Origin: Octopus vulgaris
Taxonomy: Eukaryota
NCBI GenBank assembly: GCA_951406725.2
Contig: OX597838.1
Span: 2,604,001 to 2,668,000 of the forward strand
DNA length: 64,000 bases
Reading direction: 5' to 3'
In this document: positions 9,001 to 63,000 of the stretch, piece after piece
Numbering within the stretch: the first letter of the stretch is position 1
Layout of the letters: every line of letters starts with the position of its first letter
Made by a program: the position numbers

Positions 9001-12000
9001 GGGGAAGAAGAATGGAGAAGGGGCCAGGGGCGATGGAAGAAAGGTGGGTAAAGGTAAAGGGCAGTGAGGTATGTATATGTATGCTTATGTGTGTATATGC
9101 GTGTGTACGAGTATGTATGTGTATGCTTAAATGTATACACTTGCAAGCATAGATATATATAGATATATATATAAGGAAATGCGGCATGGTACACATATAC
9201 ACAAACGCACATGCCTACACACACAATCACACATCTGTGAATGTGTATGTGTCAGTATGTGTCTGTACGTGTGCACACTTATATATATTTATACAGAGTG
9301 AATATATGCGTAAACATATATACATGAAAAACAGGTATGTATATATATATATATATATATATATATATATATATGTATATATATATATATATATATATAT
9401 ATATATATATGTATGTATGTATACATACATACATACATACATACATACATACATACATACATACATACATATATATGTGAACATACGGCCTGCTCACGTA
9501 TATGTAATATATGTGCATATGTCATATATATATATATATATATATATGTATTCATATACATACGTATATATATATACACACACAAACACATTTATGTATG
9601 TGTTTGAGAGCGAAAGACAGACAGATAGACAGACAAGGAGAATATTTGCCTATCGACTTTGCCTATCATCCTTTCGGGGTCGATAGATTAAGTACAAGTT
9701 ACGCACTCCTCAAAATTTTGCACCTTGTGCCTAGAGTAGAAAAGAACATTGCTAGTGCAGAATGGCGGCACTTACTAAAGCGGCAGCTGGTAATTGGCTA
9801 TAGAGAAACATGCCTAAGCCTGCACGCTATAGGGTAACGTTTCGCATGCAAAGAAAGGGTCGACACCGAATGACGGGAGATACATACATACATACATACA
9901 TACATACATACATACATACATACATACATACATACATACATACATACACATGTATGTAGGTAACTGGGTAGGTCGGGAGGTAAGTAGGTAGGTATATCTT
10001 TTGTCTTTTACTTCGTTACTTCTCTCGGTGGCTTGACTGCGGCCACGCTGGGGCACCACCTCGAAGAATCGACATCAGTATTTATATTCTTTTAAGCCTA
10101 TTTTGTTGAACGGCAAAGTTACGGGGAAGTAAACACAATAACACCGGTTGTCAAGCGGTAGTGGGGAACACAGAGACACAGACACAAATACACCCACATA
10201 CACACACACACAAATATATATATATATATATATATATATATATATATATATATATATATATATACCTTGGATGGGTTTCTTTCAGCTTCTATCTACCAAA
10301 TCCACTCACCAGGGTTTGGCCTGCCCGAGCTTACGGTAAAAGCCATCTTGCCATGTTGCCACGCACTGGTATTGAACCCGGGGCCATGTGGTTGGAAAGC
10401 AAACTTTTTTTACTACACAGCTATGCCTGCGTCTATATCTGGCTATAGAAAGAACTGGTTCAATCTTAATAGATTTCTAAATAAAGGCAGAGGACCAGAA
10501 TATATATATATATATATATATATATATATATATATATATATATATATATATATAATATATATATATATATATATAATATGATATATTTCATTAAATATGA
10601 TACATCGTTTCTTCAAGTTTGATTATCGATGAAAAGCAAACCATTCTTTGGATTTCAAGATACGATATATTATCTTTAACGGACTGTATAATTTTACATG
10701 CCATGTGCGTGTGTGTATGTATATAAGCACATTTACACACCTAAAAACGCACACACACGCATATATAGATATACACATGCATATTTAGCTACATAATACA
10801 TACATACGCTTACATATATATATATGTATACATATATATATACATTTTTATACATACACTCACATGTATATATATATATATATATATATATATATATATA
10901 CATGTGAGTGTATGTATAAAAATGTATATATATATGTATACATATATATATGCAAGCGTATGATGTATTATGTAGCTAAATATATATATATATATATATA
11001 TATATATATATATATACATACTATAGCACGTTACTTATATATTTAATACTGGTGTTCGTTAATCTGTTATGGAAATACACACACACGCATACACACACAC
11101 CTACACACACACACCTACACACACACACACACACACACACACACACAAACTGTTTATCGATTTTAAATACATCAATTCATCTTCACGCAAAAGTTTATCT
11201 CTGACATTCCGCCCCTCCCCTTCAACAATTAACCCCTCCCTAGGAATGATTAAGTTGCACTGCTCTGCATATACTCTTGACACCACTTCCGGTATCGTAA
11301 CTAACTAACTAACAACAACAACAACATTAATCAACTCCAACAACAACCACAATAACAATTTGCAGCCTCAACTACAACGTTGACAACAACCACACCGCCC
11401 GTAGGAACCACGACAACAACAAGAACAACAACGACAATCATCCATCAGCCACCAATGGACGTGTCGTTGACGGTAATAGGAATTTCATTTAAACTGTTGA
11501 TGACGATAATAATGGTGATGATGATGATGATGGTGGTGATGGTGGTGGTGGTGGTGATGCTGCTGCTGCTGCTGCTGCTGCTGCTGCTGCTGCTGATGAT
11601 GATGATGATGATGATGATGGTGGTGGTGATGATAGTCATGATGGTGATAGTGGGGGCTTTGTTGTCACCAAATGTTCGTAGTGATATTCTTAATGATACG
11701 GAGGAGGAGGAGGAGGAGGAGGAGAACGAGGTGAAGGAATAGTTGGAGAAGAAGAAGAGAAAAAAGAATTGTGATGATGATGATGATGATGATGATGATG
11801 ATGATGATGATGATGATGATGATGATGATGGTGGTGGTGGTGGTGGTGGTGGTGATGACGAAGATGATGGTGATGAAGATGGCGTCAACGTCACGCATGT
11901 TTACCGTAAACCGTAAAAGACAACTGTGATGTATTGGAAATGTATTTTGCGAAATATTCCCAGCAATCGAATGGAAGAACGCCATAGATGAAAAACCTTC

Positions 12001-60000: not shown

Positions 60001-63000
60001 CCGCAAGCACACACGCGTGCGTGAGTAAATGTGGTTACGTAGGTTTTTGCGTATATGCGCATGTATGTAGGAATATATATATATATATATATATATATAT
60101 ATATATATATACACATATATACATATATATATACACACGCATCTCCGTCTGTGTGCGTACGTATGCTGCTACTGCTTCGACTAATACAATATAAGATCTA
60201 TTCCCAACAAATCTCTTGATCCCTCAATCGCGCCGGAATTACTGTACACTCAAGAGAATATCGATGAATGAGTATGTTGTGTGTGTGTGTGTGTGTGTGT
60301 GTGTGTGTGTGTGCGTTTGTGTGCGTGTGTGTGTGTGTGTGTGTGTGTGTATGCGTGTGTGCATGTGTGTATGTGCGTGTGTGTTTGTGCGTTTGTGTGT
60401 GTTATGCCACTTCGAAATAATCCTTATAATTATTATTATTATTGTTGATATATATATATGTACATATATAAATATATATATGTATATATATATATATATA
60501 TATATATATATATACAGATGCATTCATTTATATACATATATATACATTCATACCTATTTACATAAATATAACATATATATACATGCATACATACATATAG
60601 ACATCCATGTGTATGTATATATGTGTGTGTGTGTATATATGTATGTATATGTATGTATATGTGTGTCCGTTTGCTTGTCTCCCTTTTAGTAAAGTGTTAT
60701 TCCACAAGTTGTTCGTTAATGAATTGCTATTTTCTATAATATTACCATTCTGGAAATAGAAACTTCATCGCAAAATGTTGTTGTTGTTCCTCTTATTGTT
60801 ACTATCACTGCTGCTGCTGCTGTTCTTGCAGTTATTGTACATGGTTTGTGTAGGCTTGATAGGTCTCCCGCCTTTGGTGTGTGAATGTCTGTTCTATCTA
60901 TATTTATATGTTTTTTCTTGGGGGTGTGGAATGGATCTTCTTGTAACTGTAGTTTTTTTAGCTCAACGTGAGCAGCTGTTGTTACTAGCGGTGCTGGTAT
61001 AGATGTGTGTGTTTGTGTGTGTGTGGCGTGTATCGGGGGGGGGGGACAATTGTGTGTGGCGTGTGTGTGTGTGTGTGTGTGTGCGTGTGCGTGTGTGTGT
61101 GATTGATTATAGATTGTACGACCGTTTCTTTAATTGGTCCAATTCGATATGAAACTATAACAATAAAAGACCGAGAGAGAGAGAGAGAGAGAGAGACCAA
61201 GAGTGAAAGAGAGTGAGAGACAAACTGACACACAGACTGACAGATAGACAGACAGGTAATAGATAGATAGTTAATCGAATTATCTAGCTATCGCTTCTCT
61301 AACCACTAAACCATTTTTATTTTCTCTCCCTGTTTATTTCCGTGTTCCTTTCTGTCGAAGAGCGTAGGCTCGAAACGTAAAAGTCTTTATCACGTCCGAG
61401 CGTTAAACTAATACATCTGTTTGTTGTTTACACTCCCGTCTTCGTCTTTTGTTGTTGTTTTTTTTTTGTTGTTTTTTTTTTGTACACTCTCACTAGATAG
61501 ATAGATAGATAGATAGATAGATAGATAGATAGATAGATAGATAGATAGATAGATAGATAGATAGATAGATAGATAGATAGACAGACAGACAGACGGACAG
61601 ATAGATAGATAGATAGATAGATAGATAGATAGATAGATAGATAGATAGATAGATAGATAGATAGATAGATAGATGCAACGCCCGGCCGGAAATCGAACTG
61701 ATGACCCAACAATCGTTAGCCGCGCGTCCCACCACTAAGCCATTCGCCCTCGCAGCGCCTTCATTAAGGCTTGGCAATTAACCTGAAGAGGAGAAAACAA
61801 TAGACGCAAATGTTTTATTAACATTCTGTGCAATAAGATAATAGTCCTTTCTAGAAATGCAGAAATTGGTGGGGAGGGCGCCTAGTCGATTACGTCGACC
61901 CCCAGTACTCAGCTGGTATTCACTTTATCGACCCCGAAAGGACGAAAGGCAAAGTCGACCGCAGCAGGAATTGAAATCAGAACGTATAAATCCGGAAGAA
62001 TTGCTGCTGAGCGTTTTGTCCAGCTAGCTAACGACTCTGCGAGCTCATCACACCCTAAATAATATCAATTTCAAATTTTGGCACAAGGCCAGCAAGTCTG
62101 GGGGAGGAGACAAATCGGTTACATCGACCCTAATGCATAACTGGTATTTATTTCATCGACCCCCCCCCCCCGAAAGGGATGAAAAGGTAAGTCGACCTTG
62201 ACGGGATTTGAAATCAGAACGTAAAGAGCCGGAAGAAAAGCTGCTAAGCATTTTGTCCAGAGCGCAAACGGTTCTGTCAGCTCACACGCTTAATAATATT
62301 AAGAGCAATAACCAATATTCATCATGTTCTCAATATTGCCACCCAATTTTCTACTCCATCAACAGTTACACCTCCATATTTCTGAGGTATACGCAGCCAT
62401 GTGGGCAGGGCACCTACGCCTACATTTGTCTCCTCCATTAGTTTTATTGCAGGTTTATTTTGTTGTTTCTGTTGTTATTTTAATACTTGTTGTTGTAGTT
62501 ATTATTGTTGTTGTTGTTGTTGTTGTAGTGTCTGCGTTGTGTGGTTTTTATTTATTATGTTGTATAGTATTTGTATTTCGTATGTGATATGTGTTGTATA
62601 ATCAGTGTAATGTGTGTTAATGTCGGAAGGTGGTTCTGTAGAATATGTACACCACCGCCGCTGCTGCTGCTGCCGCTGCTATCTTTGTTGTTGTTGTTGT
62701 TGTTGTGATGCTTTTTATATTAATGGATGCCAACAGTAAAGCGAGGATTGTTGGCGATTCTCTATCTTATTCATATTATTATCAATAACATTCTCTTTTC
62801 CTTTTTTTTTTTTCATGCCGAAACAAATTTTATTTTCAATATTAGGGTCCAATTTATCATCCTATCATTGGAATTATAGAATGGATATTGCTCTGAAAGT
62901 CTTTGAATGTGCGATGCTTCTCTCTCTCTCTTGCAATAAAATCCCCTTTTTTCTTCCATTTTTTGTTTTTGCATTTTCACAAAAAATTTTCCTACTGACT

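What the first reader, a model, noticed from the sequence alone, without database searches (positions are those of the whole stretch)
10781..60069. Window-wide pattern: (TA)n tracts as generators of inverted duplications and new dsRNA hairpins
Seen: at least six separate fold-backs centred on or abutting (TA)n (10781, 15138, 22692, 28211, 57392, 59972). The arm sequences are unrelated to each other and range from perfect to clearly diverged, which suggests an age series rather than one transposon family. Established: coleoid cephalopods have very extensive ADAR editing and an expanded miRNA repertoire, both needing dsRNA. Inference: microsatellite-primed template switching may be an ongoing source of new hairpins in this genome. 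I do not know of this being described for octopus but cannot check the literature.
Basis: partly seen in the sequence, partly recalled or inferred. Interest (0 to 1): 0.72.

Follow-up and report, generated by a model that had tools for sequence, protein, structure and literature searches.

The report
Inverted duplications seeded at (TA)n tracts
Several short stretches of this repeat-rich animal DNA have been copied backwards next to runs of TATATA, most likely by a known DNA-copying slip, giving sequences that would fold into long hairpins if they were transcribed.

Summary
Five of the six claimed fold-backs are real inverted repeats with complex arms: 10781, 15138, 22692, about 28217 and about 57385. 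The sixth (59972) folds no better than shuffled sequence (z -1.6). I found one more at 32514/32649.

The arms are unrelated between loci and have no other copy in the window. Arm identity runs from 100% down to 79%.

The link to (TA)n is non-random within the window:
- A (TA)>=6 tract lies in the spacer at 4 of 6 loci (P=0.0012).
- It abuts both inner arm ends at 3 of 6 (0 of 20000 shifts).
- It lies within 25 nt at 6 of 6 (P=0.00015).
- (CA)n and tetranucleotide controls score 0 of 6.

These tests use the same window that suggested the idea, so they are in-sample.

At 22692-22963 the event can be polarised. The two outer arms are the true tail and head of two neighbouring SINE copies. The middle 120 nt is their exact reverse complement, inserted inside the (TA) tract. 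That is the signature of a template switch or small inverted triplication.

The mechanism class is already published. A (TA)n-seeded form in this kind of genome was not found in print. The dsRNA, ADAR and miRNA link, the organism, genome-wide copy number and long-read support are all untested.

The parts
10781..10866 (+). S1 left arm (presumed original)
   Evidence: 86 nt, 95.3% identical to the reverse complement of 10901-10983. Alignment.
10867..10900 (.). S1 central (TA)17
   Evidence: Read. Both inner arm ends abut it.
10901..10983 (+). S1 right arm (presumed derived inverted copy). It runs via 'atat' into a second (TA) tract of about 37 nt ending near 11016.
15138..15243 (.). S2 palindrome: arms 15138-15176 and 15207-15243 around (TA)15 at 15177-15206
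   Evidence: 106 nt at 90.6%. TRF row 15177-15206. Fold -59.2 kcal/mol, z -11.3.
22692..22727 (+). S3 arm A: the true 3' tail of SINE copy 22370-22727 (original)
   Evidence: Aligns with the 3' end of the full SINE copy on the minus strand of 15556-15965.
22728..22753 (.). S3 first (TA)13 tract, entry junction
22754..22873 (-). S3 derived block B-(TC)13-(TA)18-A'. It is the reverse complement of the ancestral A-(TA)-(GA)-B'.
   Evidence: Two overlapping inverted HSPs cover it fully: 22753-22838 with 22878-22963 (97.7%) and 22812-22873 with 22692-22753 (100%). B carries the private variants of the SINE2 head.
22874..22913 (.). S3 exit junction: 4-nt filler 'gctt', then (AT)18
   Evidence: 'ggctta' at 22873-22878 also occurs at 22679-22684, 8 nt upstream of A. 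A third micro-switch is possible (inference).
22914..22963 (+). S3 (AG)12 plus arm B': the true 5' head of SINE copy 22938-23097 (original)
28217..28330 (.). S4 left arm (diverged, partly low-complexity)
   Evidence: 53 nt at 83.0% and 64 nt at 85.9% to 28612-28664 and 28486-28549. Many low-complexity cross-hits.
28486..28664 (.). S4 right arm, with an insertion of about 60 nt. The spacer 28331-28485 holds (TA)22 at about 28421-28467.
32514..32709 (.). Extra locus S32k: arms 32514-32572 and 32649-32709 (extendable by eye to 32500 and 32728). GA-rich spacer. A 17-nt (TA) tract at 32729-32745.
   Evidence: 61 nt at 78.7%. Sequence, alignment, fold z -6.7.
57385..57502 (.). S5 118-nt palindrome, centre 'catatg', followed at 57503 by a 95-nt (TA) tract
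   Evidence: 181 bits, 93.2%. Fold -77.3 kcal/mol, z -16.2. Outer junction shares 'tatat' with the left flank.
59972..60069 (.). Claimed sixth fold-back. It is unique sequence between two (TA) tracts and is not a significant inverted repeat.
   Evidence: No hit at 28 bits or more. Fold z -1.6.

Best explanation
These are local inverted duplications made during DNA replication or repair, at or inside self-complementary (TA)n tracts.

Proposed steps:
1. A long (TA)n tract forms a hairpin or cruciform and stalls or breaks the fork.
2. The free 3' end, itself ending in TA repeats, pairs in the reverse direction. It pairs either with itself (fold-back) or with the opposite strand of the same (TA) tract.
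3. It copies tens of bases of flanking sequence backwards.
4. It returns to the original template, again by TA microhomology.

The product is arm-(TA)-arm'-(TA), as at S1 and S2. If the reverse copying starts beyond the tract, the product is the interleaved A-(TA)-B-(TA)-A'-(TA)-B' seen at S3. Each event creates at one stroke a stem of about 25-85 bp that would be a long hairpin in any transcript crossing it.

Shown here: the structures, their association with (TA)n in this window, and the derived local origin of the S3 block.

Inferred: the stalling, the choice between fold-back and strand switch, the direction (right arm derived) at S1, S2, S5 and S32k, and any RNA-level consequence.
For: - S3 polarity. 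Arm A is the 3' tail of one SINE copy and B' is the 5' head of the next. B shares the private variants of that head, so the middle block is a copy of the two flanks rather than an inserted element. That block is fully covered by two inverted HSPs that overlap in the (TA) tract. Both of its junctions lie in (TA) tracts. Because it copies both sides of the tract, the template must have been an intact opposite strand, not one broken end.
- (TA)n association, from 20000 random shifts of six independent loci. Tract in the spacer: 4 of 6 (null mean 0.65, P=0.0012). Both inner ends abutting: 3 of 6 (null mean 0.04, 0 of 20000). Within 25 nt: 6 of 6 (null mean 1.36, P=0.00015). CA/TG tracts score 0 of 6 and tetranucleotide tracts 0 of 6 on every measure.
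- For comparison, a random 40-nt interval lies within 25 nt of a (TA) tract 13.6% of the time.
- TA-type microhomology at the outer junctions of S1 ('atat') and S5 ('tatat').
- Arms are unrelated between loci and have no other copy in the window, whereas true repeat families recur there.
- Published mechanism. Fold-back inversions of 2-150 bp form at breaks via inverted microhomology (PMC11724301, abstract and passages). Small inverted triplications have breakpoints near microsatellites and a proposed palindromic 3' flap (PMC13334657, section 2.4 and Discussion). Template switching gives new hairpins (PMC10710096, passages). AT/TA repeats form hairpins or cruciforms and stall replication (PMC11797062 and PMC12972899, listing abstracts only).
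Against: - Polarity is known at one locus only.
- The statistics are in-sample and rest on six loci. Two weaker hits at 33.4 bits (36311/37013 and 60530/60638) were dropped before the count.
- With strict HSP ends, a (TA) tract lies within 5 nt of an outer arm end at only 2 of 6 loci (null mean 0.55, P=0.096). My 'arm-x-arm'-(TA)n' refinement (4 of 6 with arms extended by eye) is therefore post hoc.
- S32k has a GA-rich centre, not a TA centre. S5 has no central tract.
- GA/TC tracts are also over-represented in spacers (2 of 6, P=0.007).
- In the flank-symmetry test, TA-containing blocks score about as often for mirror repeats as for inverted repeats (9 against 8 of 84 at score 15 or more). 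Only 2 of 84 stand out.
- (TA) tracts at fold-backs are not significantly longer than the others (median 34 against 21 bp, P=0.25).
- Copy number in the source genome could not be checked, so a transposon origin for S1, S2, S5 and S32k is not excluded.
Confidence: 0.6

Rival explanations
1. Palindromic miniature transposons (MITE or fold-back elements), each from a different family, that insert at TA and therefore land in or beside (TA)n tracts.
For: - Wholly palindromic MITE-like repeats exist in animals and give hairpin RNAs. Examples are the frog Harbinger-derived palindromic repeat (PMC5625713, passage) and human Made1/mir-548 (PMC1784062, listing abstract only).
- The window carries DNA-transposon debris. 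There is a mariner-like ORF relic 300 nt left of S5 (Pfam found nothing). There is also a 92-nt terminal-inverted-repeat pair at 48179/49838.
- A TA target duplication would be invisible inside a (TA) tract.
Against: - Excluded for S3. Its arms are the ends of the neighbouring SINE copies, with their private variants.
- No second copy of any S1, S2, S5 or S32k arm occurs in the window, and the arms do not resemble each other. However, 64 kb has little power for anything but very high copy number.
- No flanking duplication is visible at S2, S5 or S32k.
- At S1 and S2 the tract is at the centre, not on the flanks, which target choice does not explain.
Confidence: 0.2
2. The palindromes came first, from any source, and the (TA)n tracts grew later by slippage from a short TATA at the symmetry centre or at the edges. 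On this view (TA)n is a consequence, not a cause.
For: - S5 has only 'catatg' at its centre, which could be the unexpanded state.
- S32k carries a different microsatellite (GA-rich) in its loop, suggesting that loops collect repeats.
- The window is extremely prone to microsatellite growth: 29% is masked by TRF at period 12 or less.
Against: - At S3 the (TA) and (GA) tracts were copied as part of the event. (TC)13 mirrors (AG)12 and (TA)18 mirrors (AT)18, so they existed beforehand.
- At S1 a second tract follows the right arm, which central expansion does not explain.
- CA/TG tracts are nearly as common (69 tracts) but are never found at these positions.
Confidence: 0.12
3. Assembly or sequencing artefact: fold-back chimeric reads, or mis-joins in hard-to-sequence (TA)n.
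For: (TA)n tracts are difficult to sequence through. The youngest case (S3) has 100% identical arms. No read-level data were available.
Against: Four of the six loci have arms diverged by 5-21%, with indels. A single chimeric read would not produce that. Arm lengths of 25-115 nt are far below read length. The microsatellite copies inside S3 differ in length.
Confidence: 0.05
4. Chance symmetry in AT-rich, low-complexity sequence.
For: - Flanks of (TA) tracts are often degenerate TA/TG repeats that score as both inverted and mirror repeats.
- The claimed site at 59972 is of this kind.
- Part of the S4 arms is low-complexity.
Against: - Separated-arm hits of 35 bits or more number 8 inverted against 0 mirror.
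- In the kept loci, inverted scores exceed mirror and direct scores by 15-41.
- Fold z-scores run from -6.7 to -21.
Confidence: 0.03

Closest known systems
Short-range template-switch mutations (four-point model); origin of new hairpins and miRNAs by template switching (PMC7954356, PMC10710096; passages read)
   Same: A nearby sequence is copied in reverse complement and replication then returns to the original strand. One event creates a perfect stem. S3 fits the model, with switch points 1 and 4 inside the (TA) tract, point 2 downstream and point 3 upstream. Events are favoured at AT-rich replication barriers.
   Different: The published enrichment is for poly(dA:dT) and AT-rich sequence. 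The words 'microsatellite' and 'dinucleotide' do not occur in PMC7954356. The miRNA study discarded events overlapping simple repeats by more than 50%, so (TA)n-seeded cases would have been filtered out. In the present loci the switch homology is a whole self-complementary tract of 26-36 nt rather than a few bases, and the arms reach 86 nt.
Small inverted triplications, DUP/IN/DUP (PMC13334657; abstract, section 2.4 and Discussion read)
   Same: A central inverted fragment lies between direct copies (median 160 nt there, 120 nt at S3). Junctions are reverse-complementary. Breakpoints lie preferentially near microsatellites. The proposed model has a palindromic 3' flap annealing in the opposite direction or folding back, followed by a second switch.
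   Different: In S1 and S3 only the (TA) tract itself is present in two direct copies, so the 'DUP' parts are minimal. Those events were somatic or mutant-strain events (yeast rad27 deletion, cancers) and unstable. The ones in this window are fixed in an assembled animal genome and have diverged.
Fold-back inversions at double-strand breaks (PMC11724301; abstract and passages read)
   Same: A resected 3' end folds back on a short inverted microhomology, is extended by 2-150 bp, and is joined to the other end, lengthening an inverted repeat. This fits S1, S2, S5 and S32k, where only one flank is copied.
   Different: It cannot give S3, whose inverted block copies both sides of the tract. Most yeast events are under 14 bp.
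Palindromic MITEs that give hairpin RNAs (human Made1/mir-548, PMC1784062, listing abstract only; frog Harbinger-derived palindromic repeat, PMC5625713, passage)
   Same: Near-perfect palindromes of 80-250 nt that form long hairpins when transcribed.
   Different: Those are dispersed multi-copy families. These arms are unrelated to each other, single-copy in the window, and at S3 demonstrably local copies.
Palindromic AT-rich repeats (PATRRs) of human chromosomes (recalled; appeared only as a search term)
   Same: AT-rich palindromes of a few hundred bp that extrude as cruciforms and break.
   Different: PATRRs are known as causes of translocation. Their own origin at (TA)n was not examined here, and no defining feature was tested.

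Membership tests
Template-switch mutation (four-point model) | A reverse-complement copy of sequence lying within roughly 100-200 nt | tested here: met
   Met at all six loci. Spacers are 0-187 nt.
Template-switch mutation (four-point model) | The derived state can be told from the ancestral state | tested here: inconclusive
   Met at S3, using the SINE tail and head as internal polarity markers. Not testable at S1, S2, S4, S5 and S32k without an outgroup genome.
Template-switch mutation (four-point model) | Two switch junctions, with return to the original template and colinear flanks | tested here: met
   At S3 the block 22754-22873 is bounded by (TA)13 and by 'gctt'+(AT)18, and both SINE copies continue undisturbed. 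S1 has (TA)17 and a second (TA) tract.
Small inverted triplication (DUP/IN/DUP) | Two direct copies flanking one inverted copy of the same segment | tested here: inconclusive
   Only the (TA) tract is present three times at S3 (13, 18 and 18 units) and is doubled at S1. The complex arms are present twice, not three times.
Small inverted triplication (DUP/IN/DUP) | Short reverse-complementary breakpoint junctions | tested here: met
   The junctions lie in (TA) tracts, which are self-complementary. They are much longer than the published 6-bp median.
MITE / fold-back transposon | Multiple dispersed copies of the same element | tested here: not met
   No other copy of any arm in the 64-kb window. 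The source genome could not be searched, so this test has little power.
MITE / fold-back transposon | Target-site duplication flanking the terminal inverted repeats | tested here: inconclusive
   None seen at S2, S5 or S32k. A 2-nt TA duplication cannot be recognised beside (TA) tracts.
Known miRNA or other RNA family | Match to a curated RNA family | tested here: not met
   Rfam 15 gathering thresholds give 0 matches in the whole window. Lineage-specific miRNAs may be absent from Rfam.
Known miRNA or other RNA family | Transcription, and Drosha/Dicer processing or A-to-I editing | not testable with these tools
   No RNA data were available.

The most novel reading that the evidence does not exclude
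(TA)n-seeded template switching is a frequent, ongoing, genome-wide process in this very microsatellite-rich genome, at roughly one fixed event per 10 kb in this window. It would be a main source of the unusually abundant local dsRNA-forming inverted repeats reported for octopus (4.4 x 10^-3 of random loci, PMC5625713). If so, it would continuously supply raw material for ADAR hyper-editing substrates and for new hairpin-RNA or miRNA genes. Standard template-switch pipelines would miss it because they filter out simple repeats.
Probability: 0.2. Interest if true: 0.75.

Novelty: new member of a known kind. Interest (0 to 1): 0.5.

Why it matters
If the pattern holds genome-wide, it gives a concrete, testable mutational source for new long hairpins in a genome already known for abundant dsRNA and heavy RNA editing. 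It would tie microsatellite load to the birth rate of such hairpins.

It also shows a blind spot. Published template-switch scans discard events that overlap simple repeats, which is exactly where these events sit.

Locus S3 is a clean natural example. The ends of neighbouring SINE copies polarise the event without an outgroup, and that trick could be applied genome-wide.

As it stands this is one window with six loci, and nothing is known at the RNA level.

Tried and rejected
- The generic inverted-repeat finder on the raw window was swamped by microsatellites: 1238 pairs, with the top 25 all simple repeats.
- TRF masking at period 12 or less (29% of the window) or 4 or less (23%) hid S1 and part of S3. 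I replaced it with a mask of perfect runs only (16%).
- The flank-symmetry test around 343 repeat blocks mostly picked up low-complexity flanks that score equally as mirror repeats. Only S1 and S2 stood out.
- (TA) tract length, involved against not involved, showed no significant difference.
- Pfam on 10 of the 109 listed ORFs of 110 aa or more, chosen as the least repetitive, gave no family at E 0.01 or below. No gene context was obtained.
- Rfam gave no match.
- To identify the organism, a 30-nt SINE core from the window was searched in the paper library and found in 0 papers. The Atlas look-up of the mariner-like ORF gave a family lead but no organism. The octopus attribution and my impression that the SINE is the common octopus SINE therefore rest on recall only.
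- Copy number of the arms in the source genome was not checked. Genome contigs holds only bacteria and archaea, so it was not used.
- No protein-complex, structure or protein-homology job was run, because none bears on the question.
- Supplements were not opened. Figure S12 and Table S8 of PMC13334657 (distance of breakpoints to microsatellites) and the SI of PMC10710096 may hold relevant detail.

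
Full report
**Context.** The window is 64 kb with no N and is 64% A+T. It is extraordinarily rich in microsatellites. There are 89 perfect (TA)>=6 runs (2584 bp), 67 CA/TG runs and 19 GA/TC runs. TRF at period 12 or less masks 29% of it, and perfect runs alone cover 16%. With one (TA) tract per roughly 700 bp, 'abutting (TA)n' needs a statistical test, so I built one.

**Observation.** I read the six sites and searched for inverted repeats in three ways:
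- soft-masked BLAST of the window against its reverse complement;
- hard-masked BLAST, with a mirror-repeat control (the window against its plain reversal) and a direct-repeat control;
- a filter keeping hits whose inverted score beats both the mirror and direct scores by at least 12 (24 candidates at 33 bits or more within 1 kb, 9 kept, 7 of them at 35 bits or more).

Five claimed sites are recovered:

| Locus | Coordinates | Identity | Fold z |
|---|---|---|---|
| S1 | 10781-10866 / (TA)17 / 10901-10983 | 95.3% | -21 |
| S2 | 15138-15176 / (TA)15 / 15207-15243 | 90.6% | -11 |
| S3 | 22692-22963, pairs A/A' and B/B' | 100% and 97.7% | -19 |
| S4 | 28217-28330 / 28486-28664 | 83-86% | -18 |
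| S5 | 57385-57502 | 93.2% | -16 |

S4 has arms that are partly low-complexity. The sixth claimed site, 59972-60069, is unique sequence between two (TA) tracts. It gives no hit at 28 bits or more and folds no better than shuffles (z -1.6), so it is not confirmed.

It has a GA-rich spacer.

Separated-arm hits of 35 bits or more within 1 kb number 8 inverted against 0 mirror, so chance is excluded for the set. The arms do not resemble each other and have no further copy in the window, whereas the SINE and other repeat families recur several times.

**Association with (TA)n.** I took six independent loci (S3a and S3b counted once) and shifted each at random 20000 times. Two 33.4-bit hits, 36311/37013 and 60530/60638, were dropped beforehand as E=0.37.

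| Measure, (TA)>=6 tract | Observed | Null mean | P |
|---|---|---|---|
| Lies in the spacer | 4 of 6 | 0.65 | 0.0012 |
| Abuts both inner arm ends | 3 of 6 | 0.04 | 0 of 20000 shifts |
| Within 25 nt of the footprint | 6 of 6 | 1.36 | 0.00015 |
| Within 5 nt of an outer HSP end | 2 of 6 | 0.55 | 0.096 |

The same measures give 0 of 6 for CA/TG tracts (69 tracts) and 0 of 6 for tetranucleotide tracts (54 tracts). GA/TC tracts are in the spacer at 2 of 6 loci (P=0.007), namely S3 and S32k.

Three cautions apply:
- The hypothesis came from this same window, so these P values are in-sample.
- Most tracts show nothing. In a flank-symmetry test of 343 repeat blocks, only 2 of the 84 TA-containing blocks (S1 and S2) have complex symmetrical flanks. 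At a score of 15 or more, inverted and mirror counts are about equal, 9 against 8.
- Tracts at fold-backs are not significantly longer than the rest (median 34 against 21 bp, P=0.25).

**What S3 shows.** Its layout is:

A (22692-22727) - (TA)13 - B (22754-22776) - (TC)13 - (TA)18 - A' (22839-22873) - gctt - (AT)18 - (AG)12 - B' (22938-22963).

Alignment of the SINE copies in the window establishes three points:
- A is the genuine 3' tail of the SINE copy at 22370-22727.
- B' is the genuine 5' head of the next copy at 22938-23097.
- B carries the private variants of that particular head.

A and B' are therefore original. The 120-nt middle block is the reverse complement of the ancestral A-(TA)-(GA)-B', placed inside the (TA) tract. 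Two inverted HSPs that overlap in the tract cover the block completely. The microsatellites were copied along with it: (TC)13 mirrors (AG)12 and (TA)18 mirrors (AT)18. They therefore existed before the event.

Because both sides of the tract were copied in one piece, the template was an intact opposite strand, not a single folded-back broken end. This is the four-point template-switch layout, with points 1 and 4 in the tract, point 2 downstream and point 3 upstream. It equally fits a small inverted triplication in which only the (TA) tract is triplicated.

The 4-nt filler plus one base ('ggctta', 22873-22878) recurs 8 nt upstream of A (22679-22684). That could be a third micro-switch, but this is inference only.

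**The other loci.** S1 reads arm-(TA)17-arm'-(TA)~18. The right arm runs into the second tract through a shared 'atat'. S5 reads arm-'at'-arm'-(TA)~47, and the left flank offers 'tatat' at the point where the copy ends. S32k, with arms extended by eye, ends 1 nt before a 17-nt (TA) tract. S2 is followed only by a degenerate TA stretch.

A single scheme fits all of them: an inverted copy of the upstream flank is inserted at or in a (TA) tract. However, the direction is assumed rather than shown, and the outer-end statistic with strict ends is not significant. Arm identities of 100, 97.7, 95, 93, 90, 83-86 and 79% fit repeated events over time.

**Mechanism and literature.** The steps are all documented elsewhere:
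- AT/TA repeats form hairpins or cruciforms that stall forks and break (PMC11797062 and PMC12972899, listing abstracts).
- Resected ends fold back on inverted microhomology and are extended by 2-150 bp before end joining (PMC11724301, abstract and passages).
- Small inverted triplications arise from a palindromic 3' flap that anneals in reverse or folds back and then switches again. Their breakpoints lie preferentially near microsatellites (PMC13334657, section 2.4 and Discussion).
- Template switching creates perfect hairpins in one step, and some have become miRNAs (PMC10710096, passages).
- In great apes such events are enriched at poly(dA:dT) and AT-rich sequence (PMC7954356, passages).

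The mechanism class is therefore not new. Two points are not in what I read. First, (TA)n dinucleotide tracts as the seed: 'microsatellite' and 'dinucleotide' occur 0 times in PMC7954356, and PMC10710096 removed events that were more than 50% simple repeat. Second, any such account for cephalopods: searches found none.

PMC5625713 (passages) reports that octopus has an exceptionally high fraction of loci able to form long, near-perfect dsRNA. It could not annotate the repeats responsible, which leaves room for the bold reading.

**Rivals.**
- Palindromic transposons targeting TA remain possible for S1, S2, S5 and S32k. The source genome could not be searched and 64 kb has little power. They are excluded for S3.
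- Secondary growth of (TA)n at palindrome centres is contradicted at S3 and does not explain the second tract at S1.
- An assembly artefact is unlikely for the diverged loci but is untested.

**RNA level.** If transcribed, S1, S2, S3 and S5 would give stems of about 50-100 bp at -0.5 to -0.66 kcal/mol per nt. That is closer to long hairpin-RNA or hyper-editing substrates than to typical miRNA precursors. Nothing here shows transcription. Rfam finds no family, and none of the 10 ORFs scanned (of 109 listed) matched a Pfam family, so no gene context was obtained.

**Verdict.** This is a real, non-random pattern. One locus demonstrates a (TA)-tract-seeded template switch, and the rest are consistent with the same process. 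It is a new instance of a known mutational kind, with an interesting but untested genome-wide implication.

Noticed in passing
48179-48270 and 49838-49929; 48860-49282; 38783-39200: A 92-nt inverted-repeat pair (84.8% identical) lies 1.57 kb apart with complex arms. Part of the interior is 95% identical, in inverted orientation, to 38783-39200. It looks like a DNA transposon with terminal inverted repeats plus a second partial copy, and is unrelated to (TA)n.
   Followed up: partly
56613-57071 (minus strand): A 152-aa open frame about 300 nt left of S5 resembles a mariner/Tc1-type transposase C-terminus. Atlas feature hits score 0.94 to clusters carrying DDE_3 or named Mariner Mos1. Pfam gave nothing at E 0.01 or below. 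It is probably a decayed mariner relic ending near the (TA)9 tract at about 57219.
   Followed up: partly
10274-10436, 15556-15965 (minus strand), 22370-22727, 22938-23097: There are four copies of one SINE-like family. 15646-15963 and 22370-22687 are 96-97% identical. The copy at 22370-22727 lacks about 62 nt before its tail. From memory it resembles the abundant octopus SINE, but no tool verified this.
   Followed up: partly
25034-25566, with copies at 45874-46105 (minus strand), 34603-34758, 61870-61986, 52064-52141, 9652-9707 and 15368-15445: A second repeat family, present at 25.0-25.6 kb as about three tandem units of roughly 180 nt and scattered elsewhere in both orientations.
   Followed up: no
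whole window, e.g. 4246-4688, 5193-5467, 6075-6198: Microsatellite load is extreme: 473 TRF rows at score 30 or more, (ATAC)~110 at 4246-4688, and 29% of bases in tandem repeats of period 12 or less.
   Followed up: partly
S1, S3a, S5, S32k: At all four loci where a (TA) tract follows an arm, it follows the right-hand arm on the + strand. If the right arm is the derived one, this could reflect a constant fork direction across the window. With n=4 this is not significant.
   Followed up: no
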